NCBI GenBank assembly: GCA_000999095.1
Contig: LCFP01000012.1
Location: forward strand, 4,140-68,139
Length of the DNA stretch: 64,000 bases
From: Candidatus Gottesmanbacteria bacterium GW2011_GWA2_43_14
GTDB taxonomy: Bacteria; Patescibacteriota; Microgenomatia; 2-02-FULL-39-11
Reading direction: 5' to 3'
Positions 1,550 to 61,079 of this stretch are shown piece by piece. How positions within the stretch are numbered: the stretch's first letter is position 1; each line of letters opens with the position of its first letter. The position numbers and the translations under genes were made by a program. The notes beneath the pieces were generated by a model that had not been told where the DNA came from, searched no databases, and saw nothing but the letters and a program-made list of their open reading frames with translations.

Positions 1550-2338
1550 CTATTGGCAGTCGGAGTCGCAGGCGAAACCATCCCCGTCGCCGTCCCTTCC
1601 GGTACAGCCGCAATTAACCAGCTGGAATTGGGCTTCGGCGCAGGAGGTCATTTTGGCACACGATTTGCTGCAGTCGCAGATATATAAGGAAGCATCTCCG
1701 CCTGGTTCTGAAGTAGTCACGGGAGTCGGTTGAATTTCGCAGGCCGATCCCCATAATCCTTTCTGTTCTTCACGGGCGAGGCGCTGGGCTTCCATAAATC
1801 TTTCCTGGTATTTCACATCAGGCTGGTAAGTGTACGAATAGGCATAGCCTTCGCGGATGAGGATTTCATTTACCAGTTCTTCTCCGAGCCAAATGTATCT
1901 AAGGAGCCTGCCGTATCTGTCTTTTTCGGAAATATCCTTTTCCAACCTCACCAGTTTTCCTTCAACCAATTCTGTGTTTTTATCAGAAGCTTCTTTGGCG
2001 AAGCATTGGAGTGCTTTGGCCGGATGGACTGATTCCGGAGTATCGATGCCGATATACCTGACCGTTTCTCCGGTTTCTATTTTCACCGTGTCGCCGTCAA
2101 CGACGTTTACTACTCTGACTAAATCAGCATCATCAACGGTTGTCGTGGAAGGTTCCGGAGTCAGCATTTCGGCCGGACTGCCAGAAGGAGCGGGCGGATC
2201 GATTTTCTCGGGAGTGGGGGAAACTGAAGGGGAAGGGGTGAGGGACGGGGAGGATGAGGCGACTTCCGGGCCGGATTTGGCGGTTATTAAATTTGCCAGG
2301 ATGAAGAAAATCAGGAGTATGCCGAGTATTATTTTCAC
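1550..2338 (-). CDS. Secreted thermonuclease (Staphylococcal nuclease (SNase) family) with a C-terminal Excalibur Ca-binding domain
   Basis: Signal/TM N-terminus and a Pro/Ser/Thr linker. SNase motifs are present: VVDGDTVKI, RYIGIDTPE, DRYGRLLRYIW, VNEILIREGYA, GLWG. The C-terminus is Cys-rich with DGDGDGFACDSDC, an Excalibur-like signature. Confidence 0.8.
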   Translation of the reverse strand: MKIILGILLIFFILANLITAKSGPEVASSSPSLTPSPSVSPTPEKIDPPAPSGSPAEMLTPEPSTTTVDDADLVRVVNVVDGDTVKIETGETVRYIGIDTPESVHPAKALQCFAKEASDKNTELVEGKLVRLEKDISEKDRYGRLLRYIWLGEELVNEILIREGYAYSYTYQPDVKYQERFMEAQRLAREEQKGLWGSACEIQPTPVTTSEPGGDASLYICDCSKSCAKMTSCAEAQFQLVNCGCTGRDGDGDGFACDSDCQ

Positions 2339-12381: not shown

Positions 12382-12786
12382 ATGAAAAGGATGTTTTTAT
12401 CATTAGTACTGTTTTTTGTCCTGTTACTTCCGGCAGGTGTAAACGCCCAAGAGACACCATCGTCAACACCCGAACCAACGGTGACGGCAACGCCAACCGG
12501 CAGCAGTGCGACAGCTACAAATTCACCTTCCGAACCGACGGCAACATCCAGGCCTCAGGCAACCGTCACCAGAACTCCGGTAAGAAGCACAGCCACGCCT
12601 TTGCCTCCGACCGTCACACCGACCATTACTTTGTCACCCACGCCCAGCCAGACACCGACTCCGACTCCGGCACCTTCTTTTTTGGCCAGGAGCGGGGGAG
12701 GAGCGGGTTTTATTTTGATTCTGGCAGGTTTAGCTCTTCTGGGCGGTTCCGTCTACTACCTGCGTAAACAAAAGCGCTCAGTTTAG
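12382..12786 (+). CDS. Secreted Thr/Pro-rich protein with a GlyGly-CTERM-like tail (GGG, then a TM helix, then basic residues)
   Basis: Signal peptide, a TP-rich linker, and the C-terminus ...ARSGGGAGFILILAGLALLGGSVYYLRKQKRSV. Immediately downstream of the rhomboid gene. Confidence 0.5.
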   Translation: MKRMFLSLVLFFVLLLPAGVNAQETPSSTPEPTVTATPTGSSATATNSPSEPTATSRPQATVTRTPVRSTATPLPPTVTPTITLSPTPSQTPTPTPAPSFLARSGGGAGFILILAGLALLGGSVYYLRKQKRSV

Positions 12787-12927
12787 CTTCCATATTTTTT
12801 ATTATCCCCTTTTTATATATTCCTGATATTTCTCTCATGTGCTGAAACTACGATAACGGCATAATAATGTTACTTACAGGCCTGCCGCCTTAAAACATTT
12901 TATCTCAACAAAATATCCATCTTTGCC

Positions 12928-12957
12928 AGAAACCCCCGAATACTCGGGGGTTTTTTA
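12928..12957. terminator. Bidirectional intrinsic terminator
   Basis: An A-run, then the CCCCCG-aatact-CGGGGG hairpin, then a T-run. It lies between convergent genes (12382..12786 + and rnj -). Confidence 0.6.
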
Positions 12958-12973
12958 TATTTCCGGGGGGATT

Positions 12974-14677
12974 TCAAACATTGATGACGACGGTCAGGAT
13001 GAGCGGACGGCGGTGGGTTTCCCTGAAGAAAAATTCCTCCAGATTGCCTTCGATCTGCCGTCTGACAAAATGCCAGTCGGTAATGCGGCCCTTTTTCAGT
13101 TTCAGGGAATTGACAATGACATTTTTAGCCTTCTCTATCAGTCCTTCCGACTCTTTCATATAAACAAAGCCGCGGGAAATAATATCCGGATCAGCTGAAA
13201 CGCGGCCGGAAGACTGGTCAATGGGCACAACCACAACCACAATTCCTTCACTGGCCATCGTCTGGCGGTCGCGAAGAACCACATGGCCGATATCGCCGAC
13301 ACCCAATCCGTCGATCATAATATTTTTTAAATTGAGGCGGTCTTTAACACTGACCTGGCCTTCTTTGGTAAATTCCAGAATTTCCCCCTCCTGGGGTTGC
13401 AGGACTTGTTGATGTTTATAGCCCATATCATAAGCCAGTTCGGCATAATGTCTCATTTGCCTGATGGTGCCGCCGATCGGCAGAATAAATTTGGGCCTGG
13501 TCAGGCCGATCATCAAAGCCAGGTCACTTTTGGATCCATGGCCTGAAACATGCAGGGCATCGGTGATTTCCGAATAGGCGACTCTGGCGCCGGCTGCGGT
13601 CAGGGAATCTATCAGGCCATGAACGGCGCTTTCATAGCCGGGAATGGGATCGGCGGAAAAGACCACGATATCCCCTTCTTTTATCGAGACAGACTTATGG
13701 ATGCCTTCGGCAATTCTGGACAGGGCTGAATTGGGCTGAGCCTGGCTGCCGGTAACAATCAGAGCCAAATCCTTGGGAGGGTGCTTGCGGATGTCTTTTT
13801 CGCGGACAACAAAGTTGTCGCTATAGTGCAGATAATTTAATTTGCGGGAGACATCGATATTTTTCTCGATCGACCTGCCTAAAAAGGCAATTTTGCGGTT
13901 GTGGCGGATAGCCACATCAACCGCCTGTTGAATCCTGGAGATGTTCGATGACTGGGTGGTGAAGATAAATTTACCAGGACAGTTCCGGATTTCTTTTTCC
14001 AGGGCATCTTCGATGACTCTTTCAGAGAGGGTATAACCTTCGGATTCCACGCGGACACAGTCTGATAAGAGGCAGACAATGCCGGAATTGGCGCTTGCTG
14101 CGATTTTGCCGACTTCAGTCTGCCTGCCGTCAATAGGCGTCCAGTCGAATTTGAAATCAGAGCCGTGGTAAAAATTGCCGACCGGAGTCCTGATAAAGAG
14201 ATTGGAGGCATCCGGTATGGAATGGGTGACATGGATGAAGCTGACGGTAAACGGGCCGAGCGTCAGATTTCTATCTTCGGCAATTTCATTCACCTGAAAC
14301 TGCAGACCGAAATCAGCTAATTTAACTTTGGCCAAGGCCGAAGTCAGTTTGTTGGCGTAAACAGGCACTTTTAGATCGGGCAGAATATAAGGCAGGGCGC
14401 CGATATGGTCTTCATGCCCGTGAGTCAGGACGATGCCGCGGATCTTGTCTTTTTTGTCCTGAAGATAGGTGATATCGGGAATAACCAGATCAATGCCGTA
14501 CATGGCTTCATCGGGAAAACCTATACCGCAGTCGACGATCAGTATGTCGCTGATAGTTTTCGGGTCTGAGCGAAGCTCATAGATATACATGTTTTTGGTG
14601 ACATTGCCGATGCCTCCCAGGGGGATCAGTCTTAAAAATTGGCCAAAGGGATTTTTATATATGGGTTCTGTTTGCAT
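12974..14677 (-). CDS. rnj: Ribonuclease J
   Basis: Metallo-beta-lactamase motif LTHGHEDHIGALPY. The length and beta-CASP region match RNase J. Confidence 0.85.
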   Translation of the reverse strand: MQTEPIYKNPFGQFLRLIPLGGIGNVTKNMYIYELRSDPKTISDILIVDCGIGFPDEAMYGIDLVIPDITYLQDKKDKIRGIVLTHGHEDHIGALPYILPDLKVPVYANKLTSALAKVKLADFGLQFQVNEIAEDRNLTLGPFTVSFIHVTHSIPDASNLFIRTPVGNFYHGSDFKFDWTPIDGRQTEVGKIAASANSGIVCLLSDCVRVESEGYTLSERVIEDALEKEIRNCPGKFIFTTQSSNISRIQQAVDVAIRHNRKIAFLGRSIEKNIDVSRKLNYLHYSDNFVVREKDIRKHPPKDLALIVTGSQAQPNSALSRIAEGIHKSVSIKEGDIVVFSADPIPGYESAVHGLIDSLTAAGARVAYSEITDALHVSGHGSKSDLALMIGLTRPKFILPIGGTIRQMRHYAELAYDMGYKHQQVLQPQEGEILEFTKEGQVSVKDRLNLKNIMIDGLGVGDIGHVVLRDRQTMASEGIVVVVVPIDQSSGRVSADPDIISRGFVYMKESEGLIEKAKNVIVNSLKLKKGRITDWHFVRRQIEGNLEEFFFRETHRRPLILTVVINV

Positions 14678-14682
14678 AATTA

Positions 14683-15768
14683 TTACCAGGTAGGCAGAAA
14701 TTTTTTAACATTGTCATTGGTGAGGGTGACTTTGCTGACCTGATTTTCAATAATCTGCCTGGCAACTTTGCGGCAGACGCCGTCGATAGTCCTTTCCAGC
14801 GTTCTGATGCCGGAATCGTAACCGAGCGGCCTGACTATGGCACTCCAAACATTATCTTCTATCTGCAGTTGCCCGGCAGAAAGACCGGTAGCGGCCAGGA
14901 TTTTGGGATAAACATAAGATTTGGCGATGACAATTTTTTCTTCATCATTATAGGAGGGCATCTGAATGGGTTCCAGTCTGTCCATAACCGCCGTTGAGAT
15001 ATTATTGGTATTGTTGGCTGTGGCTATAAAGAGGACTTCGGACAGGTCAAAGGGAAAATCTATGTAATGGTCGATAAAACCTACATTTTGTTCAGGGTCC
15101 AGAAGTTCGACCAGAACGCCCATAATATCCGACCGGGCATGCTCGGCCACGCGGTCAAGTTCATCCAAAAGGATAACCGGATTTTTACTGCCGGCACGTC
15201 TTAATGCTTTTATCAACTGGCCGACTTCGGCATCGGGATGGACGCGTGATTCCCCTCTCAAGTCAAGGGCCGAACCCATGCCGCCGAAAGGAATTCTGAC
15301 AAATTTCCGGTTCAGGGCTTCGGCGATTGAGATGGCCATGGTTGTTTTGCCGGTGCCGACCAGGCCGACAAAAAACAGGATGGGTGCCCTGGTAAAATTG
15401 TGTTTGGCATCAGGATGTATCTGGCTCAAATTCAGATTCAATTTCATGACTGATAAATATTCCAGTATTCTGTCTTTTAATTCGCCCAGACCGTAATGAT
15501 ACTTATCCAGAATCAGTTTGGCATTTTTAATGTCCAGATTATCAGGAGTCTTGTATTGCCAGGGAAGGGAAGTGATCCAGTCAATGTAAGCGGCCACGGC
15601 GTCAAATTGGCTGAACTGGGTATGGTATTTAAAGCTCAATTCCGCCCGGTGGATCATGGTTTGGGCTTTTTCTTTGAGTTCCTGCGGTAAGGTAACGGAG
15701 TTTATTTTTTGAGTCAGTTTTGTCAGTTCCGCAAATTCTCCGTCGGCGGCGTTTGTTTGGTTGTCCAT
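14683..15768 (-). CDS. Lon-like AAA+ ATPase that lacks the Lon N-terminal (LAN) domain and the protease domain
   Basis: YIDW..LPW, DKYHYGLGELKDRILEYLSV, Walker A GLVGTGKTT, Walker B ILLDELDRV, LLDPEQN. The ORF stops exactly where the Lon protease domain would begin. RNase J starts 5 nt later. Confidence 0.7.
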   Translation of the reverse strand: MDNQTNAADGEFAELTKLTQKINSVTLPQELKEKAQTMIHRAELSFKYHTQFSQFDAVAAYIDWITSLPWQYKTPDNLDIKNAKLILDKYHYGLGELKDRILEYLSVMKLNLNLSQIHPDAKHNFTRAPILFFVGLVGTGKTTMAISIAEALNRKFVRIPFGGMGSALDLRGESRVHPDAEVGQLIKALRRAGSKNPVILLDELDRVAEHARSDIMGVLVELLDPEQNVGFIDHYIDFPFDLSEVLFIATANNTNNISTAVMDRLEPIQMPSYNDEEKIVIAKSYVYPKILAATGLSAGQLQIEDNVWSAIVRPLGYDSGIRTLERTIDGVCRKVARQIIENQVSKVTLTNDNVKKFLPTW

Positions 15769-15815
15769 CAGTAAAATTATAACAGGCTTTAAGATTTGCT
15801 GTCAGTGGAAAGATT

Positions 15816-16970
15816 TTAAATCCCCTCAAGGGCTTGCGTTATATCTGCTATCAGATCATCCGCATCCTCGATGCCGACGGACAGTCTGATCAGTGTATCG
15901 CTAAGTCCGATTTTCGCCCGGTCTTCTGCCGGAATCGATGCATGGGTCATCGAAGCCGGATGCTCGATAAGCGATTCGACCACACCCAGAGATTCCGCCA
16001 CGGCGATAATTTTCAATGATTCCAGAAATTTTACCGACAGGGCAAGATCGGTATCCAGTTCGAATGAAAGCATACCGCTTGCGCCTGTCATCTGTTTTTT
16101 GGCAATGTCGTAATTCGGATGGGTGGAAAGTCCCGGATAATAAATTTTTTTGACTTTCGGCTGACGGCTGAGGAAGTCCACGATTTTCAGGGCGTTTTCT
16201 TCATGCCTTTTCATTCTCAAAGAAAGGGTTTTGATGCCTTTCAATATCTGGTAGCTGTCAAAGGGAGAGAGTATGGCTCCCACGGCATTTTGCAGGAATT
16301 TCAGACGAACAGACAACTGTTCGTCCCTGACAACAACGCCGCCTGCCACACAATCGGAATGGCCGCCGATATATTTGGTCATGGAGTGAATAACTATATC
16401 AGCTCCCAAATCCAGCGGTTTTTGGAAATAGGGCGAAGCGAAAGTATTGTCGACAACCGTCAAAATGCCTTTGGCCCGGGCTGTTTCGGCAACCGAGGCA
16501 ATATCGATTATTTTCAGAAGGGGATTGGTCGGCGATTCTATCCAGATCACTTTGGTGTTTTTCGTCAGATGAGGAAGAATTTCTTTGCCCTGGCAAAAAT
16601 CGGCGAATGTAAATTCCAGCCCGAAATCGCCAAAGACTTTGGTGAATAGTCTCCGGCTGCCGCCATAAACATCATCGATTGAAAGCAGGTGATCCCCCTG
16701 TTTGAGAAGCAGAAGAATGTTGGTCATGGCAGCCAGTCCGGAAGAAAAAGCAAAAGCGTATTTGCCGTTTTCAAGCGCGGCCAAGTTTTTTTCCAGGGCT
16801 TCCCGCGTCGGATTGCCGCTTCTGGAGTATTCATAGCCTGCTGTTGGCCGGTCGACTTTTGCCCGGGCAAAGGTGGTCGAGAGGTGGATCGGGACAACAA
16901 CATCGCCGCTGCCGCCCTCTTTTAAATTGGGTTCATTGCCGGTATGAATGGCTTTGGTAGCAAATTTCAC
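15816..16970 (-). CDS. Cys/Met-metabolism PLP-dependent enzyme (cystathionine gamma-synthase / beta-lyase / methionine gamma-lyase family)
   Basis: PLP-lysine motif SMTKYIGGHSD and an N-terminal AIHTG. GTG start. Confidence 0.75.
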   Translation of the reverse strand: MKFATKAIHTGNEPNLKEGGSGDVVVPIHLSTTFARAKVDRPTAGYEYSRSGNPTREALEKNLAALENGKYAFAFSSGLAAMTNILLLLKQGDHLLSIDDVYGGSRRLFTKVFGDFGLEFTFADFCQGKEILPHLTKNTKVIWIESPTNPLLKIIDIASVAETARAKGILTVVDNTFASPYFQKPLDLGADIVIHSMTKYIGGHSDCVAGGVVVRDEQLSVRLKFLQNAVGAILSPFDSYQILKGIKTLSLRMKRHEENALKIVDFLSRQPKVKKIYYPGLSTHPNYDIAKKQMTGASGMLSFELDTDLALSVKFLESLKIIAVAESLGVVESLIEHPASMTHASIPAEDRAKIGLSDTLIRLSVGIEDADDLIADITQALEGI

Positions 16971-17114
16971 AAAAAAAACCTTCCTTGAGGGATAGTCAGA
17001 TTTCTAACTCGAGAAAATCCGGCTTCCGTTACGGAAGGCAACAACAAATTTCAATAATTGTTCCGTGATTCATGTTTGAGAGTAAATAATAGCAGAAAGC
17101 CCTGATTTTGTCTA

Positions 17115-19286
17115 TTAAAACCTTCTTCTTTTAGGAGGACCGAAGCGGTCACGGCGGGGAGGACCGGAGTCCCTTCTTGGCTGGGGCGGTCTTTTCTTGG
17201 CATCTTCGCCGAAAAGCATGGACAGATTGATGCGGCCCTGGTCATCGATTTCCATGACCCGGACTGTTACTTTCTGGCCGATGGTAACGACATCGTTGGG
17301 ATTGGAAACAAAATCGGTGGCCATCTGGGAAACATGGACCATGCCTTCGCGGCCGGGAAGAATTTCCACAAAAGCGCCGAAGGAGAGGATGCGCCTGACC
17401 AGTCCTTCATAGACTTCCCCCGGCTGGACTTCCTTGATAATACCGGATACCCATTTGAAGGCGATCTCCACTTTTTCCGGATCGATGCCGGCGATGGTGA
17501 CCTGACCGTCATCGTTGACATTGATATCACAGCCTGTTTCGGCAATTATCTGGCGGATGATTTTGCCTCCCGGTCCAATGACTTCGCCGATTTTTTCTTT
17601 GGGAATTGTAACGACTTTGATCTTGGGTGCGTATTGAGAAATGTGGGTGCGGCTTTGGGGAAGGACTTTCAGCATTTCTTTCAGGATATAAAGACGGGCT
17701 GTCCGGGCTTTTTCCAAAGTCTCTTGAATTATTTCCTGCGACAGACCGTCATTTTTGACATCCAGCTGGATGGCGGTAATGCCTTTTTCCGAACCGGCGA
17801 CTTTGAAGTCCATATCTCCGGTGAAATCTTCGATGCCGATAATATCGGTGAGCAAAACGTATTTATTTTTCGCCCCGACTAAACCAATGGAAATACCGCT
17901 GACGGGACTTTTGATGGGAACACCGGCATCCATTAATGCCAAAGTAGAACCGCAGGTCGAAGCCATGGATGTCGAACCGTTGGAAGACATTATTTCCGAA
18001 ACCAGTCTGACGGTATAGGGAAAACTGCTCTGTGGAGGAATGACCGGCCACAAGGCTCTTTCAGCCAGGGCGCCGTGTCCGACTTCGCGCCTGGAGGGAA
18101 AACCAACTCGGCCCGTTTCACCGACTGAGTATGGCGGCATGCTGTAGTGGTGGATGTATCTTTTGGCTGTTTCGCCTTCCGGACTCTCAATAAGCTGCTC
18201 CATGGACGGTGACCCCAGTGTGGCCACAGTCAGTGCCTGGGTTTGACCCCGGCGGAACATGGCGCTGCCGTGGGTACGCGGCAACAGTCCGACTTCTCCT
18301 TCGATATCTCTAATTTCGTCTGCTTTTCTGCCGTCCGGTCTTTTGTTTTTTTCAAGAATGTTCCTGCGGATTGTTTCCTTAAAATTGTATTCAAGGGCTT
18401 TTTCAATGTCTTTCTTGTCATATTCCTCGTCGGTAGCGGCAATTTTATCGATCAGATCCGATGTTTCGTTGCCTTCCCTTTCTTTGCTGACCCGGGTCGT
18501 AACCAAAGCGTCGATTTCTTTCTGGAAATCTTTTTTTATGATGCTTTTAAGTTTTTCGATGTCAGCATCAGGATCAACCACGATTTTTTCCTTGCCTACG
18601 GCTGATTGCAATTCATTGATTAATTTAATGATTTTTTTAATTTCGTCTGAAGCAAATTTGATGCCCGAAAACATGTTTTCTTCACTGATTTCATTGCCGC
18701 CGGCTTCGATCATAACTGTTTTATCAGCGGTGCCGGAAACAATAAGGTCCATATCGGAAAATTCAAGTTCTTTGTCGCCGGGATTGGCGAAAAAACCCTT
18801 GTCGCCGTTTTCCGTCGGCACAAGTCCTACCCGGACGGCTCCGATCGGGCCTTTCCAGGGTAGCGGTGAAATGGACAGGGCGGCACTTACGGCTATCATG
18901 CCTAAAATATCCGGTTCATTCTGGCCGTCAACAGAGAGGATAGTGATAATAACCTGGACATCGTGGTGGTAATTGTAATCAAAAAGGGGCCTGATAGACC
19001 TGTCGATTAACCTGGCTCTAAGAATGGCGTCATCGGAAGGACGGCCTTCGCGTTTGACCCAGCGGCTGCCTTTGATTCTGCCTCCGGCGTACAGCCTTTC
19101 AACATATTCGACCGAGAGGGGGAAGTAATCCAGATTGGATTCTTTGGCCGAGGCCATCACTGTGGCTATGACCATGGTGTCGCCGTAGCGCGCCAGGACA
19201 GCAGCCGTGGCCTGTTCGGCAAACCGTCCGACTTCCAAAGACAGAGTTCGGCCGCCGATTTCCGCTGATTTTGATATGACTTTCAT
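17115..19286 (-). CDS. pnp: Polynucleotide phosphorylase
   Basis: Two RNase PH domains plus KH and S1 domains. Basic RR-rich C-terminal tail. Confidence 0.9.
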   Translation of the reverse strand: MKVISKSAEIGGRTLSLEVGRFAEQATAAVLARYGDTMVIATVMASAKESNLDYFPLSVEYVERLYAGGRIKGSRWVKREGRPSDDAILRARLIDRSIRPLFDYNYHHDVQVIITILSVDGQNEPDILGMIAVSAALSISPLPWKGPIGAVRVGLVPTENGDKGFFANPGDKELEFSDMDLIVSGTADKTVMIEAGGNEISEENMFSGIKFASDEIKKIIKLINELQSAVGKEKIVVDPDADIEKLKSIIKKDFQKEIDALVTTRVSKEREGNETSDLIDKIAATDEEYDKKDIEKALEYNFKETIRRNILEKNKRPDGRKADEIRDIEGEVGLLPRTHGSAMFRRGQTQALTVATLGSPSMEQLIESPEGETAKRYIHHYSMPPYSVGETGRVGFPSRREVGHGALAERALWPVIPPQSSFPYTVRLVSEIMSSNGSTSMASTCGSTLALMDAGVPIKSPVSGISIGLVGAKNKYVLLTDIIGIEDFTGDMDFKVAGSEKGITAIQLDVKNDGLSQEIIQETLEKARTARLYILKEMLKVLPQSRTHISQYAPKIKVVTIPKEKIGEVIGPGGKIIRQIIAETGCDINVNDDGQVTIAGIDPEKVEIAFKWVSGIIKEVQPGEVYEGLVRRILSFGAFVEILPGREGMVHVSQMATDFVSNPNDVVTIGQKVTVRVMEIDDQGRINLSMLFGEDAKKRPPQPRRDSGPPRRDRFGPPKRRRF

Positions 19287-19705: not shown

Positions 19706-20743
19706 TTAGAGAAGGGTAGAGCCTTTGTAGATTTTCGGCTTCAACCAGTCTGGAGGGGTTTCCGGAGGTGATCCTGCCTCTCTTACTGACGGGCTTTGTC
19801 CCTGTTGCTGCTGTTTAGGCTGTTGCTGGGGTTGGGTTTTGGGACGGAATGGCTGCTGCTGTTGCTGTGTCTGCTGCTGCTGTCCTGAAACCGGCTGTCT
19901 TTGAAACGGCCGTTGGGGACGGGCAAAAGAAAAAGGTTTTTGGGATTGATCCTGCCTGGGAAACTGCGGCAGATTCTGACCGGTTTTAGCTTGGGATTGT
20001 TTTTGCCTGGCACCGTTTTTGAGCAAAAGTGCGGCTGTTTCAAAAGTGGCGGCTGTAACCTCGGGCGAGGCGAAATTGTTGGTTTCCTCAGATAGTCCCA
20101 TCATAAGATTCGTAGCAATGTCCGGCTCCAGGGACAATCCCATTTCGCTTATAAGAGTGGCGGCTAGCTCTGAAATCGAAGAAGCACTGGTGTCGATAAT
20201 ATTGGCTTTACCGTATTTTTGATTGTTGCCTGCCACATCGATATTGATGAGCGGTTTTTCATTAAAAAGACTCTGGTTCCCGTTATAAAGACTGTCCAGA
20301 TCATCAAGTTTGCTTGCACCGACGGTGATGATGCAATCGGTTGCGCCGCCGCTGTAATTGTACTGCATCATTTCGGGTGTAATGGGGGGATAGCCTTCTC
20401 TTGGTTCGATAACTAAATTAAAAGTATCATTTTCGATATTGTAGCTGACTTTCTCGATGGAGCCTTCCTGGTATGGGAAGGAAATGATCAGATTCCGGCC
20501 GTTTTGACTGCCGATCGCTTTGCCGATTTTGTCCACACCTACTAATTCATTGTAGCCGACAGTCATTTCTGTGGCTGAAACCATTGAAATCTGTTTGCCG
20601 GCTGCCGATAATGACAGATAAAATGAAAGAGCTGCCGCTACTGCATCAAAAGAAGGATTTGCTGGCAGGGCAATTAAAATAGCCTTGGAAGATTCCAGCA
20701 GAGTTCTCGCTTGATTTACTTGGTCCCGATTAAGGTTTGCCAT
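19706..20743 (-). CDS. DHH-family (NrnA-like) domain protein with degenerate catalytic motifs and a Gln/Pro-rich tail
   Basis: The fold resembles the NrnA N-domain, but PDxD is replaced by PSFD, DHH by DVAG, and GDTGRF by SEETNNF. No DHHA1 domain. Ends in a Q/P-rich tail of about 90 aa. Confidence 0.5.
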   Translation of the reverse strand: MANLNRDQVNQARTLLESSKAILIALPANPSFDAVAAALSFYLSLSAAGKQISMVSATEMTVGYNELVGVDKIGKAIGSQNGRNLIISFPYQEGSIEKVSYNIENDTFNLVIEPREGYPPITPEMMQYNYSGGATDCIITVGASKLDDLDSLYNGNQSLFNEKPLINIDVAGNNQKYGKANIIDTSASSISELAATLISEMGLSLEPDIATNLMMGLSEETNNFASPEVTAATFETAALLLKNGARQKQSQAKTGQNLPQFPRQDQSQKPFSFARPQRPFQRQPVSGQQQQTQQQQQPFRPKTQPQQQPKQQQQGQSPSVREAGSPPETPPDWLKPKIYKGSTLL

Positions 20744-31842: not shown

Positions 31843-33842
31843 ATGGCACAAAATGTAACCGTCACCAAAAACAGGAACGTACCTTTGGCCAGGTTGAGGA
31901 ATATCGGCATTATTGCCCATATTGATGCCGGTAAAACCACGACCACCGAAAGGATACTTTATTATACCGGTAAATCCTACAAGATCGGTGACATTGATGA
32001 GGGTACAACCCAGATGGACTGGATGCCTCAGGAGAAAGAAAGAGGCATAACTATCACCGTTTGGATGCGGAAGAAGGCGTCCAGTCCCAATCAGAGACTG
32101 TCTGGCATCAGGCGGATAAATACAAAGTTCCCCGGATATGTTTTATTAACAAGATGGATAAACTGGGTGCTGACTTTCTGAGAACTGTGCAAATGATTAA
32201 AGACCGCCTGGGAGCCAATCCGGCCATCATGAATTTACCGATAGGCAAAGAACATGAATACATAGGCGTTGTCGATCTTTTAACCAGAAAAAGCATGATT
32301 TGGGGAACCGATGTGCTCGGAGCGAAATATGATCTGTCAGACGAGATTCCGGCCGGTATGAAAGATGAAGTGGAAAAATACCGCCACAAACTGATCGAAC
32401 AGATTTGTGAGCAGGATGATGCCCTTTTGGAAAAATACCTGGGCGGAAATGAACCGTCTCTGGAAGAATTAAAGAAAGTATTGAGGAAGACTACCATCGC
32501 CTATAAACTGGTGCCGATTTATGCCGGTTCATCATTAAGAAATAAGGGAGTTCAGCCTCTTTTGGATGCTATTGTCGATTACCTCCCGTCGCCTTTGGAA
32601 GTATCAGGCATCAAAGGCATTAATCCCAAGACAAACCAGGAGGAATTGAGAAAAACTGATTCTAACGAGCCGTTTTCGGCTCTGGCCTTCAAAATCCAAT
32701 TGGATCCGCATGTAGGTAAATTGACTTACATCCGGATTTATTCAGGTAAATTGACCTCCGGTTCATATGCCTGGAATGCCTCTAAAGACAAGCAGGAAAG
32801 GGTCGGCCGCCTGCTTTTAATGCATGCCAATAACCGTGAAGAAATACAGGAAGCTTATGCCGGAGAGATAGTAGCGGTTGTGGGTTTGAAGGAAACGGGT
32901 ACAGGTGATACTTTAAGCCAACAGACAAGGCCAATTATTTTGGAGAAGATTACTTTTCCGGATCCTGTTATTTCTCTGGCCATTGAACCGAAAACCAAGG
33001 CTGACCAGGAAAAAATGGGACAAGCCCTGCAAAGACTTGCCGAAGAAGACCCGACTTTTATAGTTAAATCAAATTTGGAAACAGGACAAACTATCATCTG
33101 GGGCATGGGTGAACTTCATCTGGAAGTTCTGGTCGACAGAATGAAAAGGGAATTCAAAGTCGATGCTAATGTCGGAGCGCCACAGGTTGCTTATAAAGAA
33201 ACGATCAAAGGTAAAGCCGAAGGGGAGGGAAAATATATACGTCAGACAGGTGGCCGGGGACAATACGGTCATTGTTTCCTTAGAGTTGAACCAAAAGCCA
33301 GAGGTGAAGGTTACGAATTTGTTGACGCCATCAAAGGCGCGGCAATACCCAATGAATTTATTCCTTCAGTGCAAAAAGGAGTCAAAGAAGCATTGGATAA
33401 GGGCATTCTAGCCGGATACCCGGTAGTTGATATGAAAGTCACCCTTTATGACGGCACATACCATGATGTGGATTCATCAGATATCGCCTTTAAAATTGCC
33501 GGCAGTATAGCTTTGCAGAGTGCAGCCAAACAGGCCGGTTTAATCCTTCTGGAACCGATCATGAAGGTCGAAGTGACGACTCCTGATGAATTTATGGGTA
33601 CGGTCATCGGAGATATATCGAGTAAAAGAGCTCAAATCCTGGGAACGGAAAAACGCGGTACTGTTTCCATTATTATCGCATTGGTACCTTTAGCGGAACT
33701 TTCAGGATATGCGACAACCTTAAGGTCTGTTTCCCAAGGCCGGGCAACTTACTATATGGAGCCTTCACATTACGAGGAAGTTCCTAAAAACATTACTGAA
33801 AAAATCGTTTCCTCAGTTTCCCATCCGTCTACCCGGGGTTAA
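31843..33842 (+). CDS. fusA: Elongation factor G with an apparent internal deletion and frameshift at about 32052-32066. The G3/DTPGH segment is missing.
   Basis: ORF 31843..32181 encodes the G1/G2 region up to ERGITIT. ORF 32061..33842 resumes at (V)[26 protein letters not shown] in another frame. About 35-40 codons are absent between them. Confidence 0.85.
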
Positions 33843-53122: not shown

Positions 53123-53226
53123 CAGTTTTATTATAGTACACCAGTATTTCCAATATCCTCCAATATTTTTTAATATCTTGTAACTTCTTCTAATATTTGT
53201 TAAAAATAAATAAAGTTGATTTTCAT

Positions 53227-54216
53227 ATGCTTCTTGATTACGCTTATTCGATTACTCCGGCCATCACCGATCATCTATACCAGCTTGATGTCTTGAACAA
53301 AGCTTTGACTCTCATGCCTCATTTGCCGCATATCGAAGAGAATTTAAAGAGAAAATCACTCCTTAAGAGTTCCGTTTATTCCGCCAGGATTGAAGGCAAC
53401 CGCCTGAGAATGGAGGATGTGGAAAACTCCACGTTTGAGTTACGTGGCGAAACCCGCGAAAAACTGGAAATTGCCAATATTTTAAAAGCTATCCGCTGGC
53501 TCGATTCGCAAAGGTCAAATGTGCTGTCAAAAGCTTTTCTTATGGAACTGCATAAAATAGTCATGTCAGGTTTGACTGAAGAGCTGGGCAGGTTCAGGAG
53601 CAGTCAGTCGGCCATCTTCAATCAGGCAGGCGTCGCCATTTATCTGCCTCCGCCGGCTTCCGAAGTCGGGACATTGGTGGAAAAACTGATTGAACAGGCC
53701 CGATCCTCGAAAGATGCGGGGCCTTTGGTGTCAGCCCGCTTCCATTTTGTTTTCGAGAAAATCCATCCTTTTCTGGACGGCAACGGCAGGGTTGGCAGGC
53801 TGGTTTCGGCTTTCATCCTGGAAAAAACAGGTTACGGTTTTAGGAAGCTTGTTTCTCTGGAAGAATATTTGGAAAATGAAAGAGAAAGGTATTATCATTT
53901 TCTGAATACCGCAGGCAAAGACATAACCGGATTTATTGAATTTTTTCTTGAAGGGTTTGTATTGCAGGCGGAAAAAGCCTTGGTCAATTTGGGAAAAACA
54001 AAGGAAGAACTGCCGGAAGACAGCCTTCTCCCCAGGCGGCGTGAAATTCTGGAAATTATCAGGGACCAGAAAATGGTTTCATTCGATGCCATAAAAAGGA
54101 GGTTTTTTAAAGTGCCGTCAAGCACAATCCATTACGATTTAAAACAGCTGACAAAGGACAGGTTCATAAAAAAACTCGGCAAAACCCGCGGTTCGCTTTA
54201 TACACCGGCCGACTGA
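53227..54216 (+). CDS. Fic family protein (AMPylation domain plus a C-terminal winged helix)
   Basis: Fic motif HPFLDGNGRVGRL. Confidence 0.85.
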   Translation: MLLDYAYSITPAITDHLYQLDVLNKALTLMPHLPHIEENLKRKSLLKSSVYSARIEGNRLRMEDVENSTFELRGETREKLEIANILKAIRWLDSQRSNVLSKAFLMELHKIVMSGLTEELGRFRSSQSAIFNQAGVAIYLPPPASEVGTLVEKLIEQARSSKDAGPLVSARFHFVFEKIHPFLDGNGRVGRLVSAFILEKTGYGFRKLVSLEEYLENERERYYHFLNTAGKDITGFIEFFLEGFVLQAEKALVNLGKTKEELPEDSLLPRRREILEIIRDQKMVSFDAIKRRFFKVPSSTIHYDLKQLTKDRFIKKLGKTRGSLYTPAD

Positions 54217-59558: not shown

Positions 59559-61079
59559 ATGTTGTCAGTTCTAAAGACCATTCTGTCCAGGTTGGAAAAA
59601 ATTGAAAAACAGCTGGATACGGAAAAGGAAGCAATTCCAGTCCAGGTAACGCCCAAGGCAGCTCCTGTTGCCAAGCTTGATTTATCCCAGGTCAACCAGG
59701 AAGCCAAAGCCATCATTATCGAAGCCAGAGATGAGGCTTTCCGCATCAAAAGGGAAGCCGAGGATAAAGCCGGCAAGCTGCGCCAGGAAATCCTGTCAAT
59801 TGAGCAGCGGGTTTTAGGAAAGGAAGATGCAGTCGATAAAAAAATAAGCCAGATGGAAGCCGGAGAGAGGGAATTAAATAGGAAAGAGGCATCAATTGCC
59901 GGCAGTGTAGCCGAAGCCGATAAGTTGAGAACGGACCTGATCACTAAACTGGAAAGCGTGGCACACATGACCCGCGAAGAAGCCAAGAAGCTGATACTGA
60001 CGGCTGTCGAAGATAAATTAAAGGAAGAAATGGCCAAGAGGATCAGGGAAGCCGAATCAGAGGCCAAACAGGAAGCCGATACCAAAGTCAGGGAGATTCT
60101 GATCGATGCCATGCGTCACGGAGCAACTGATTACGTACCGGAATATACTGTTTCGGCACTGAAGATTACAGACGAGGATTTCAAAGGCAGGATTATCGGC
60201 AAGGAAGGCCGCAATATCCGGGCTTTCGAGATGGCCACCGGTGTTGATGTAGATCTGGATGAGGAAGGGGTCATCAGACTGTCTTCCTTTGATTCGGTGC
60301 GCCGGGAGATCGCCAGGGTCACTTTGGAGAAATTGCTCCGCGACGGCCGCATCCAGCCGGTCAGGATAGAGGAGCTGGTCAGGCAGACGAAGCAGGAAGT
60401 TGAGCGGGTGATGTTTAAAGAAGGGGAGAAATTATGCCACGCGGTAGGTGTTTACAATCTGCCGAGTGACAAAATTGCCCTTTTGGGACGGTTCAAATTC
60501 CGGTTTTCCTACGGTCAGAACATGATTGCCCATACCTTGGAAGAGACGAAAATCGGCATTGCCCTGGCCCACGAGCTCGGGGCTGATGTCAATATAGTCA
60601 GGCTGGGATGTCTTTTGCATGATATCGGTAAGGTGATAACCGACAAGGAAGGCAGCCATGTCCAGCTGGGAGTCGAGCTTTTGAAGAAAAACGGCATGCC
60701 CCAGGCGGTCATTGACTGCGTGGCGTCACACCACGAGGATATTCCTTTCCCGTCTTTGGAGGCGGTCATCGTTTACGTGGCTGATGCCATCTCCGGATCG
60801 CGTCCGGGAGCCCGTTACGAGAATATTGATGAATATGTCAAAAGGCTCTCGACCTTGGAGGAAGTGGCCACTTCTTTTCCCGGCATCGAGAAAGCCTATG
60901 CCCTTCAGGCGGGCCGCGAACTTCGGGTTATCGTTGACCCGGGCAAACTGGATGATGCCGCCATGACGGTGGTAACCAGGAAAATCAGGGATGAAATCGA
61001 GAAAAAGTTTCCGACTTTTCCCGGACAGATAAAGATCACTGCCATCAGGGAATTGCGGGTTGTGGAAACAGTACATTAG
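59559..61079 (+). CDS. rny: Ribonuclease Y
   Basis: Coiled coil, then a KH domain (GKEGRNIRAFE), then an HD domain (LHDIGK, HH). No obvious N-terminal TM helix. Confidence 0.85.
   Translation: MLSVLKTILSRLEKIEKQLDTEKEAIPVQVTPKAAPVAKLDLSQVNQEAKAIIIEARDEAFRIKREAEDKAGKLRQEILSIEQRVLGKEDAVDKKISQMEAGERELNRKEASIAGSVAEADKLRTDLITKLESVAHMTREEAKKLILTAVEDKLKEEMAKRIREAESEAKQEADTKVREILIDAMRHGATDYVPEYTVSALKITDEDFKGRIIGKEGRNIRAFEMATGVDVDLDEEGVIRLSSFDSVRREIARVTLEKLLRDGRIQPVRIEELVRQTKQEVERVMFKEGEKLCHAVGVYNLPSDKIALLGRFKFRFSYGQNMIAHTLEETKIGIALAHELGADVNIVRLGCLLHDIGKVITDKEGSHVQLGVELLKKNGMPQAVIDCVASHHEDIPFPSLEAVIVYVADAISGSRPGARYENIDEYVKRLSTLEEVATSFPGIEKAYALQAGRELRVIVDPGKLDDAAMTVVTRKIRDEIEKKFPTFPGQIKITAIRELRVVETVH

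What the first reader, a model, noticed from the sequence alone, without database searches (positions are those of the whole stretch)
14683..15768. Stand-alone Lon AAA+ module lacking both the N-terminal substrate domain and the protease domain
The 361-aa ORF aligns from the Lon helical region (YIDW..LPW, HYGL...RILEYL) through a complete AAA+ module with Walker A, Walker B and sensor residues. It stops exactly where the Lon Ser-Lys protease domain should begin. RNase J starts 5 nt later, and the metC-like gene ends 47 nt upstream, so neither flank has room for the missing domains. It is either an unusual protease-less Lon-derived ATPase (an unfoldase or regulator) or a decayed lon gene.
Basis: seen in the sequence. 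Interest (0 to 1): 0.55.

Follow-up and report, generated by a model that had tools for sequence, protein, structure and literature searches.

The report
Protease-less Lon ATPase of CPR bacteria
This gene encodes only the ATP-driven motor of the Lon protease, without its substrate-binding or protein-cutting domains. It is not a broken gene but a strongly conserved family found across a large group of tiny uncultured bacteria, which suggests the Lon motor does another job there, probably as a chaperone-like remodeller.

Summary
A 361-aa ORF (minus strand, 15768→14683) matches LonA only from the three-helix bundle through the AAA+ α/β and lid subdomains (TIGR00763 positions 253-571 of 795). It has no N domain and no S16 protease domain. 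RNase J starts 5 nt downstream and a Cys/Met-PLP gene ends 47 nt upstream.

It is not a decayed lon gene.
- The genome is a Candidatus Gottesmanbacteria (CPR).
- The same ~345-400-aa protease-less architecture occurs in 71 species-level Microgenomates/Dojkabacteria genomes and in hundreds of metagenomic clusters.
- Every member stops within 9 codons of the same point.
- Walker A/B, sensor-1, Arg finger, sensor-2 and the DPEQN signalling motif are invariant. dN/dS is 0.075.
- The canonical LonA substrate-gripping loop (RGHRRTY[IV]G) is replaced by a family-specific loop (RGQSRx[H/F]P[D/E]AEPG) in the protease-less forms.

Best reading: a ring-forming, ATP-hydrolysing Lon-derived remodeller or chaperone with no peptidase of its own, here co-transcribed with rnj. 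Its position between pnp and rnj is part of a long lineage-wide syntenic block, so that link is weak evidence.

I could not test whether a peptidase partner is encoded elsewhere in these genomes. This is a new architectural variant of a known family. I found no description of it.

The parts
14683..15768 (-). lonAAA CDS, 361 aa: a LonA-derived AAA+ ATPase without the N domain and without the S16 protease domain
15568..15756 (-). N-terminal three-helix bundle (residues 5-67), equivalent to E. coli Lon ~247-305, the C-terminal part of HI(CC)/NTD3H
   Evidence: AF2 helices 5-24, 29-47 and 55-67; alignment to E. coli Lon; domain naming from PMC6722904
14965..15375 (-). AAA+ alpha/beta nucleotide-binding subdomain (Pfam AAA, residues 132-268)
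15340..15366 (-). Walker A, GLVGTGKTT. G135, G138, G140, K141 and T142 are invariant in 71/71 members
15220..15258 (-). Pore-1 loop, RGESRVHPDAEVG. Family consensus is RGQSRx[H/F]P[D/E]AEPG, replacing LonA RGHRRTY[IV]G[AS]MPG
15160..15177 (-). Walker B, VILLDE. D202 and E203 are invariant
15085..15156 (-). Pore-2 loop region plus the conserved LDPEQN motif, which corresponds to the inter-subunit signalling motif of LONP1
14977..15021 (-). Sensor-1 (TANN, N252 invariant) to the Arg finger (D263-R264, equivalent to E. coli R484, invariant)
14740..14892 (-). Lon-type lid (alpha-helical subdomain, Pfam Lon_lid, residues 293-343), with sensor-2 R322 invariant
14686..14706 (-). C-terminal tail KKFLPTW-COOH. 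The pattern ...[FY][LMI]P.W-COOH is conserved in most Gottesman-, Shapiro- and Levybacteria members and differs in Woese- and Roizmanbacteria
15776..15805 (-). Promoter-like site CTGACA-18-(TG)TATAAT, 11 of 12 matches, the best in 12800-17200. The -10 element ends 7 nt before the ATG, so the mRNA would be (nearly) leaderless
   Evidence: This is a consensus match only
12974..14677 (-). rnj (RNase J, 567 aa). It starts 5 nt after the lonAAA stop and is probably co-transcribed and translationally coupled
12928..12955 (.). GC-rich hairpin 18-46 nt past the rnj stop. It is terminator-like, with a better T-run on the + strand
15816..16970 (-). Cys/Met-metabolism PLP enzyme (metC/metB-like). It is a lineage-specific insertion between pnp and lonAAA, seen only in the window, L005 and L006
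17115..19286 (-). pnp (PNPase), the upstream member of the conserved block nusA-infB-c3-rpsO-pnp-lonAAA-rnj

Best explanation
The gene encodes a functional, vertically inherited, protease-less descendant of LonA. It consists of a three-helix bundle plus a complete AAA+ module (alpha/beta and lid subdomains).

Shown: the architecture is conserved across Microgenomates and Dojkabacteria. The gene is under strong purifying selection. Every residue needed for ATP binding, hydrolysis and inter-subunit coupling in a ring is invariant. The canonical Lon substrate-threading loop has been replaced by a family-specific, acidic, Pro-containing loop. No peptidase domain or N-terminal recognition domain is encoded in or next to the gene.

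Inferred: the protein assembles into a hexameric ring or spiral, like the isolated E. coli Lon 235-584 fragment. It uses ATP hydrolysis to remodel, hold or unfold client proteins without degrading them, so it is a chaperone- or regulator-type Lon. This is the mirror image of LonC, which kept the protease and lost the ATPase. In this genome the gene is expressed from its own promoter-like site as a two-gene unit with rnj.
For: - Domain content and extent.
- Fold: AF2 pLDDT 81.6. The top Foldseek hits are LonA/LONP1 AAA+ modules, and the best mutual coverage is with 6n2i, the isolated E. coli Lon AAA+ fragment (TM 0.80/0.85).
- Conservation of the truncated architecture: 71 genomes, all ORFs ending 0-9 codons after query position 357-361; more than 100 Gottesmanbacteria clusters of 350-388 aa; 120 of 120 Dojkabacteria hits of 386-425 aa with AAA + Lon_lid only.
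- Invariant in 71/71: K141, D202/E203, N252, R264, R322. DPEQN is conserved.
- dN/dS is 0.075 against L001.
- All canonical LonA representatives carry RGHRRTY[IV]G, while all high-scoring protease-less forms carry the rewritten loop.
- The smallest NJ clan holding the 71 loci has 83 members, all protease-less.
- No Lon N-domain or P-domain similarity in the window or in ~1.1 Mb of flanks. No peptidase gene family recurs in the neighbourhood. No ClpP-like gene lies near, and the only ClpX-like match is one weak hit in L043.
- The isolated EcLon(235-584) fragment binds ADP and packs as an open helical hexamer (PMC6722904).
- Proteolytically inactive Pim1 retains chaperone function (PMC12994072).
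- Promoter-like site and 5-nt coupling to rnj.
Against: - No biochemical data exist. Hexamer formation, ATPase activity and client remodelling are all inferred.
- In LonA the protease ring contributes to hexamer stability (own knowledge), so a protease-less protein may need a partner.
- The pore-1 loop keeps an aromatic or His residue in 58 of 71 members, so processive threading into a separately encoded chamber is not excluded.
- The conserved C-terminal ...P.W-COOH tail could be a docking element.
- I could not search the rest of these genomes for an S16, ClpP or HslV partner.
- Bootstrap support for the exact edge of the clade is only 40/100.
Confidence: 0.6

Rival explanations
1. It is the ATPase subunit of a split, two-component protease. 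The ring docks onto a separately encoded peptidase (an orphan Lon S16 domain, or a ClpP- or HslV-like protein) located elsewhere in the genome, and threads substrates into it.
For: ATPase and ring-coupling residues are intact. An aromatic or His residue is retained at the pore-1 position in 58 of 71 members. A short conserved C-terminal tail ends in Trp in most lineages, which resembles the C-terminal docking tails of HslU and proteasomal ATPases (own knowledge). MEROPS lists S16 groups that lack ATPase components (PMC9569914).
Against: No peptidase-like gene lies next to it in any of 71 loci, and no Lon_C similarity appears in ~1.1 Mb of flanks. No ClpP-like gene lies near, and the only ClpX-like match is one weak hit in L043. 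The canonical threading motif is lost and replaced by an acidic Pro-containing loop exactly in the protease-less forms. The C-terminal tail is not universal, since Woese-, Roizman- and part of the Levybacteria differ. No split Lon has been described (searches found none).
Confidence: 0.2
2. It is an accessory ATPase of the RNA-decay machinery. It would remodel or regulate RNase J and/or PNPase, or their RNP substrates, which would explain its position between pnp and rnj.
For: pnp lies upstream in 57 loci and rnj downstream in 55 of 71 loci, on the same strand. lonAAA and rnj are directly adjacent in 35 loci, and within 100 nt or overlapping in 27. The gap is 5 nt here, with a promoter-like site in front of lonAAA. 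In several Levybacteria loci the lonAAA-rnj pair stays together although ftsK is no longer downstream.
Against: The whole string nusA-infB-c3-rpsO-pnp-lonAAA-rnj-ftsK-rodZ-like is conserved. pnp...rnj-ftsK is an old gene order in Terrabacteria (own knowledge), so adjacency may simply be inherited. Unrelated genes (UDG-like, phosphoesterase-like, ProRS-like) are inserted between them in many loci. Roizmanbacteria, Dojkabacteria, L055 and L062 keep the gene without pnp or rnj nearby, and in Roizmanbacteria it sits beside groES-groEL. The family is acidic (median pI 5.6, against 8.7 for the E. coli fragment), with acidic pore loops, which is unfavourable for nucleic-acid binding.
Confidence: 0.12
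3. It is a decayed or truncated lon gene, or an assembly artefact.
For: Only the missing domains themselves. TIGR00763 scores below its cutoff.
Against: The identical protein occurs on 5 independently assembled contigs. The same boundaries hold in 71 genomes and hundreds of clusters. Catalytic residues are invariant. dN/dS is 0.075. No domain remnants appear in any frame.
Confidence: 0.02

Closest known systems
LonA protease (E. coli Lon, B. subtilis LonA, human LONP1; MEROPS S16.001, TIGR00763)
   Same: Clear homology over the three-helix bundle, the AAA+ alpha/beta subdomain and the Lon-type lid: 37-45% identity, E ~1e-76. The fold is the same. Walker A/B, sensor-1, Arg finger, sensor-2, DPEQN and the pre-sensor-1 hairpin region are the same.
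   Different: It lacks the N-terminal LON substrate-binding domain and long coiled coil, and it lacks the S16 Ser-Lys protease domain. The pore-1 loop is rewritten (Y398→H/F, I399→P, G400→D/E, M402→E). The protein is acidic rather than basic. The Lon literature defines every Lon as an A domain followed by a P domain (PMC9569914).
E. coli Lon(235-584) proteolytic fragment (PDB 6n2i)
   Same: Essentially the same boundaries as this natural protein. It gives the best mutual structural coverage (TM 0.80/0.85). It binds ADP and packs as an open helical hexamer (PMC6722904).
   Different: It is a laboratory fragment of a full protease and keeps the canonical pore loop. The family described here is a natural, selected, stand-alone gene product.
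LonC (Meiothermus taiwanensis and other thermophiles)
   Same: A Lon-family member that has lost one of Lon's two activities and is reported to act as a chaperone as well (PMC3391209, PMC13069640).
   Different: It is the opposite case. LonC keeps the protease and has a dead ATPase. This family keeps the ATPase and has no protease.
Proteolytically inactive Lon/Pim1 acting as a chaperone; other AAA+ protease motors working without a peptidase (FtsH-like FtsHi, ClpX in organisms without ClpP; own knowledge)
   Same: They set a precedent that the AAA+ part of a protease can do useful remodelling or assembly work without degradation (PMC12994072).
   Different: Those are point-inactivated enzymes or belong to other AAA+ families. 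Here the peptidase domain is absent altogether, and the Lon-type pore loop is changed.

Membership tests
LonA protease (TIGR00763 / MEROPS S16.001) | C-terminal S16 Ser-Lys proteolytic domain (Pfam Lon_C, PF05362) | tested here: not met
   No Pfam hit. The ORF ends at E. coli-equivalent residue ~582. tblastn with E. coli Lon 585-784 finds nothing in the window or in 71 loci.
LonA protease (TIGR00763 / MEROPS S16.001) | N-terminal LON substrate-binding domain (PF02190) and long coiled-coil helix | tested here: not met
   No Pfam hit. The ORF starts at E. coli-equivalent residue ~244. tblastn with E. coli Lon 1-250 finds nothing. The longer variants carry only low-complexity tails.
LonA protease (TIGR00763 / MEROPS S16.001) | AAA+ module with Lon-type lid, and a fold matching the LonA ATPase | tested here: met
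   PF00004 and PF22667. Foldseek E 1e-27 to LONP1/LonA, TM 0.80/0.85 to 6n2i.
LonA protease (TIGR00763 / MEROPS S16.001) | Whole-protein score at or above the curated equivalog cutoff (608 bits) | tested here: not met
   330 bits over profile positions 253-571 only.
LonA protease (TIGR00763 / MEROPS S16.001) | Canonical pore-1 loop RGHRRTY[IV]G[AS][ML]PG | tested here: not met
   RGESRVHPDAEVG here. The family consensus is RGQSRx[H/F]P[D/E]AEPG, while most full-length N+A+P LonA representatives carry the canonical motif, with only small variations.
Active ring-forming AAA+ ATPase (classical/HCLR clade) | Walker A GxxGxGK[ST], Walker B hhhhDE, sensor-1 N, Arg finger, sensor-2 R | tested here: met
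   All are present and invariant in 71/71 members.
Active ring-forming AAA+ ATPase (classical/HCLR clade) | Hexamer formation and ATP hydrolysis | not testable with these tools
   Only indirect evidence: the Arg finger and DPEQN are conserved, and the homologous EcLon fragment packs as a helical hexamer.
ATPase subunit of a two-component AAA+ protease (ClpX/HslU-like arrangement) | A cognate peptidase gene, usually adjacent or in the same operon | tested here: not met
   No peptidase family recurs in the neighbourhoods of 71 loci. There are no Lon_C or ClpP hits in the flanks. The rest of the genomes could not be searched.
ATPase subunit of a two-component AAA+ protease (ClpX/HslU-like arrangement) | A dedicated docking element (IGF-type loop or C-terminal tail) | tested here: inconclusive
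   A conserved ...[FY][LMI]P.W-COOH tail occurs in most but not all lineages. No known docking motif was recognised.
LonC | Degenerate ATPase motifs together with an active S16 protease domain | tested here: not met
   The opposite is found: intact ATPase motifs and no protease domain.
Anti-phage defence Lon-like/AAA proteins (e.g. BrxL; PADLOC models) | A significant match to a defence-system model, and a defence-island context | tested here: not met
   Only weak generic AAA matches (best is DolB, 28 bits). The context is core housekeeping genes.

The most novel reading that the evidence does not exclude
The Lon-derived ATPase is a dedicated ATP-dependent remodeller of the RNA-decay machinery. 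It would be co-expressed with RNase J, just downstream of PNPase, and would act on RNase J, PNPase or their protein partners. That would make it a Lon-based degradosome component in organisms with minimal genomes. The evidence does not exclude this, but most of the synteny can be explained by inherited gene order.
Probability: 0.1. Interest if true: 0.8.

Novelty: new variant of a known kind. Interest (0 to 1): 0.5.

Why it matters
Lon is defined in the literature as a single chain carrying both an ATPase and a protease. The only described Lon that has lost one of its two activities (LonC) lost the ATPase.

This family is the reverse case. It is a naturally selected Lon motor without a protease, with all ATPase machinery intact but a rewritten substrate-contact loop. 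It is conserved across a large radiation of ultra-small, genome-reduced bacteria (Microgenomates and Dojkabacteria).

It offers three things:
- a natural system to ask what a Lon AAA+ ring does on its own, and how pore-loop chemistry tracks the loss of degradation;
- a correction to database annotation, because these proteins are variously labelled "Lon protease", "ATP-dependent protease La" or "AAA family ATPase";
- a pointer to how protein quality control is organised in CPR bacteria.

If a distant peptidase partner exists, it would be the first split Lon.

Tried and rejected
- **Decayed gene or assembly error.** Rejected by conservation, invariant motifs, dN/dS and five independent contigs.
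- **Hidden protease or N-domain remnants in other frames or in the flanks.** None found.
- **P0160** (Dojkabacteria, 548 aa), as an intermediate with a decayed protease domain. Its extra 195 residues are an S/N-rich low-complexity tail with no similarity to Lon_C.
- **N-terminal extensions** (Levybacteria ~90 aa, others up to ~150 aa), as remnants of the LON domain. They are P/Q/A/T-rich low complexity with no Pfam hit.
- **P0211**, the protease-bearing Lon nearest to the family, as a CPR relative. It is a full-length LonA split by frameshifts on a 71%-GC contig, so it is unrelated.
- **Heat-shock (CIRCE/HrcA) operator upstream.** None in any locus, and none at groES in the Roizmanbacteria loci either, so the test is uninformative.
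- **Nucleic-acid-binding role like E. coli Lon.** The family is acidic (pI 5.6 against 8.7). I could not retrieve the paper on E. coli DNA-binding residues.
- **Defence-system membership.** Only generic AAA matches.
- **ClpP/ClpX near the loci.** No ClpP-like match, and only one weak ClpX-like hit, in L043.
- **Structured RNAs around the gene.** None.
- **Literature** on Lon in CPR, Patescibacteria or Microgenomates, or on protease-less Lon. Nothing found.
- **AFDB fold search.** The library was unavailable.
- **Biopython NJ.** It timed out, so I replaced it with my own NJ implementation.
Full report
**1. Observation**

The ORF is real. It runs on the minus strand from 15768 (ATG) to 14683 and encodes 361 aa. 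The RNase J gene (12974..14677, minus; beta-CASP, RNase_J_C and metallo-beta-lactamase domains) starts 5 nt after its stop. A Cys/Met-metabolism PLP enzyme gene (15816..16970, minus) ends 47 nt before its ATG.

Pfam sees only AAA (residues 132-268) and Lon_lid (293-343). NCBIfam's endopeptidase La model TIGR00763 matches profile positions 253-571 of 795, at 330 bits against a 608-bit cutoff. The best solved-structure match by sequence is B. subtilis Lon 3m6a residues 4-338 (E 2e-76), followed by many LonA/LONP1 entries. In alignment with E. coli Lon, the protein spans residues ~244-582. tblastn with the E. coli N region (1-250) and the protease domain (585-784) finds nothing in the 64-kb window at E<=1. 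It omitted only the strand.

**2. It is a conserved family, not a decayed gene**

The identical protein is on record from a Candidatus Gottesmanbacteria MAG and on five independently assembled contigs. The 120 best database hits are all 324-388 aa, apart from one 547-aa protein with an N-terminal extension. They are 66-77% identical and contain only AAA + Lon_lid.

A scan of one genome per species returned 71 loci. They are labelled Gottesman-, Woese-, Shapiro-, Roizman-, Levy- and Dojkabacteria and 'Patescibacteria', plus several obviously mislabelled MAGs. In every locus the ORF ends 0-9 codons after the position aligned to query residue 357-361. Most are 342-365 aa. One Levybacteria clade is 430-450 aa, and a few reach 470-512 aa. 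The extra N-terminal residues are P/Q/A/T-rich low-complexity sequence with no domain hit.

A second database search, seeded with the most divergent member (Dojkabacteria, L067), again returned 120 of 120 protease-less proteins of 386-425 aa. Several lie on 0.70-0.76-Mb contigs. E. coli Lon N- and P-domain queries find nothing in ~1.1 Mb of flanking sequence from these loci. dN/dS against the closest relative (L001, 84% aa identity) is 0.075, with dS near saturation.

**3. What is kept and what is changed**

These residues are invariant in 71/71 members:
- Walker A: G135, G138, G140, K141, T142
- Walker B: D202, E203
- sensor-1: N252
- the Arg finger: R264 (E. coli R484)
- sensor-2: R322 (E. 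coli R542)
- R326

The LDPEQN motif after pore loop 2 is also conserved (D224 in 71/71, P225 in 70/71). In LONP1 it is described as an inter-subunit signalling motif (PMC12994072). An Arg finger and a signalling motif matter only in an oligomer, so their invariance argues for a ring or spiral assembly.

By contrast, the pore-1 loop is rewritten. In LonA this loop reads RGHRRTY[IV]G[AS]MPG and carries the Tyr that grips and threads substrate (PMC12994072). The changes are:
- Y398 → H (34), F (21), Y (3) or other (13)
- I399 → P (56)
- G400 → D/E (67)
- M402 → E (70)

Among the 150 best representatives from an exhaustive 1.84-billion-protein search, most full-length N+A+P LonAs carry the canonical motif or a near variant, and every high-scoring protease-less short form carries the rewritten ...P[D/E]AEPG type. 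Loss of the protease domain and loss of the canonical threading loop therefore go together. The family is also acidic (median pI 5.6), whereas the equivalent E. coli fragment has pI 8.7.

**4. Structure**

The AF2 model (pLDDT 81.6, pTM 0.79) shows three N-terminal helices (5-24, 29-47, 55-67) followed by a canonical AAA+ alpha/beta subdomain and a helical lid. Foldseek against the PDB gives LONP1 and LonA ATPase modules at E ~1e-27. The best mutual coverage is with 6n2i, the isolated E. coli Lon 235-584 fragment (TM 0.80/0.85). That fragment is made by limited proteolysis, binds ADP, and packs as an open helical hexamer (PMC6722904). The Gottesmanbacteria protein is in effect a natural version of it.

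**5. Phylogeny**

In a distance (NJ) tree of the AAA+ module with 213 sequences, the smallest clan holding all 71 loci has 83 members. All are protease-less, and none of the 111 protease-bearing Lons falls inside. Support for the exact boundary is only 40/100, because a few deeper protease-less forms (P0157, P0160, P0162, P0192) move in and out.

Protease-bearing Lons are all about equally distant, at 38-42% mean identity. The nearest one, P0211, is a frameshift-split full-length LonA on a 71%-GC contig, so it is not a CPR relative. I found no intermediate form. P0160 (Dojkabacteria, 548 aa) has only a low-complexity tail.

**6. Genomic context**

At first sight the context is striking. PNPase lies upstream and RNase J downstream on the same strand in most loci. 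Clustering all ORFs of the loci shows that lonAAA sits in a long conserved string, nusA-infB-(345-aa unknown)-rpsO-pnp-lonAAA-rnj-...-ftsK-rodZ-like.

From my own knowledge, nusA-infB-...-rpsO-pnp and rnj-ftsK are old gene orders in Terrabacteria. The position may therefore be inherited rather than evidence of a functional link. Other points against a strict link:
- Unrelated genes are often inserted between lonAAA and rnj. By eye these are a family-4 UDG-like gene, a metallophosphoesterase-like gene and others. A ProRS-like gene sits between rnj and ftsK. In this genome, a metC-like gene is inserted between pnp and lonAAA.
- Roizmanbacteria keep the gene divergently next to groES-groEL, with no pnp or rnj nearby. 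Dojkabacteria, L055 and L062 also lack the rnj link.

What remains is local coupling. lonAAA and rnj are directly adjacent in 35 loci, and within 100 nt or overlapping in 27. In this window the best sigma-70-like site of the region (CTGACA-18-TG-TATAAT, 11/12) sits in the 47-nt gap. Its -10 element ends 7 nt before the ATG, so the mRNA would be nearly leaderless. rnj follows after 5 nt, and a GC-rich hairpin lies just past rnj. Co-transcription with rnj is therefore likely here. A functional partnership is possible but unproven.

**7. Mechanism**

Shown: this is a selected, ATPase-competent, Lon-derived AAA+ module with no peptidase, no N-terminal recognition domain and a non-canonical pore loop.

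Inferred: it forms a hexameric ring or spiral and uses ATP to remodel, hold or unfold client proteins without degrading them. That would make it a chaperone- or regulator-type Lon. The precedents are the chaperone function of proteolytically inactive Pim1 and LonC, the mirror-image case of an ATPase-dead protease with chaperone function.

I give this reading 0.6. The rivals are:
- the ATPase of a split protease whose peptidase is encoded elsewhere (0.2). In favour: a retained aromatic or His residue in 58 of 71 members, and the conserved ...P.W-COOH tail. Against: no adjacent peptidase in 71 loci, and loss of the threading motif;
- an accessory ATPase of RNA decay (0.12);
- decay or artefact (0.02).

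**8. Comparison with the known, and novelty**

The protein is homologous to LonA but fails the membership tests for a Lon protease. It has no P domain and no N domain, it scores below the equivalog cutoff, and it has a non-canonical pore loop. The Lon literature states that every Lon chain has an A domain followed by a P domain (PMC9569914).

NCBI names these proteins 'AAA family ATPase', while other sources call them 'Lon protease' or 'ATP-dependent protease La'. No specific NCBIfam model exists. Five literature searches found nothing on Lon in CPR or on protease-less Lons. I therefore class it as a new variant of a known kind.

**9. Limits**

- The key open question is whether these genomes encode any S16, ClpP or HslV peptidase or a second, full-length Lon.
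- The neighbour identifications for c10, c11, c27, c28 and c31 are by eye, not by profile search.
- The promoter and terminator calls are consensus matches only.

Noticed in passing
window 31843-33842 (+): The EF-G gene is interrupted. ORF 31843..32181 encodes the N-terminus up to ...[10 protein letters not shown]. The reading frame then shifts, and ORF 32061..33842 resumes at ...[14 protein letters not shown]. About 50 residues, including the G3 (IIDTPGH) motif, are missing in all frames. This is either an assembly artefact or a real deletion plus frameshift in an essential gene.
   Followed up: partly
proteins P0121, P0123, P0124, P0126-P0141 etc. (representative search, not in the window): Many top-scoring relatives are Lons with two or three tandem AAA+-lid modules followed by a single Lon_C domain (about 900-1700 aa). 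P0121 is from Candidatus Dependentiae. Some of the extra modules have non-canonical pore loops. This is an unusual multi-ring Lon architecture.
   Followed up: partly
window 19706-20743 (-): A 345-aa gene with no Pfam hit is conserved between infB and rpsO in 48 of the related loci. It occupies the position where rbfA, truB or nrnA sit in other bacteria.
   Followed up: no
window 12382-12786 (+): A 134-aa ORF with a signal-peptide-like N-terminus and a long P/T/S-rich region. It ends in a C-terminal hydrophobic stretch followed by a basic tail (RKQKRSV). It looks like a cell-surface-anchored protein.
   Followed up: no
window 15816-16970 (-): The metC/metB-like PLP enzyme gene is a lineage-specific insertion into the otherwise conserved pnp-lonAAA interval. 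It is present only in the window, L005 and L006 among 72 loci. A promoter-like site (TAGACA-17-TATTAT) lies at 17114..17086.
   Followed up: partly
loci L018, L019, L021, L031, L069 (Roizmanbacteria): Here the protease-less Lon gene is not near pnp or rnj. It lies divergently next to groES-groEL. This may hint at a proteostasis role, or it may be coincidence.
   Followed up: partly
proteins P0160 and P0157 (Dojkabacteria-type, not in the window): A second, more divergent kind of protease-less Lon-AAA protein with yet another pore loop (LRGTTSTDANGFPG) and long S/N-rich disordered C-terminal tails. Dojkabacteria may carry two paralogous protease-less Lon ATPases.
   Followed up: partly
window 53197-54216 (+), 1550-2338 (-) and 59559-61079 (+): A Fic-domain protein, a staphylococcal-nuclease-like protein and RNase Y are also encoded in the window. 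With PNPase and RNase J, three RNA-decay enzymes lie within 64 kb.
   Followed up: no
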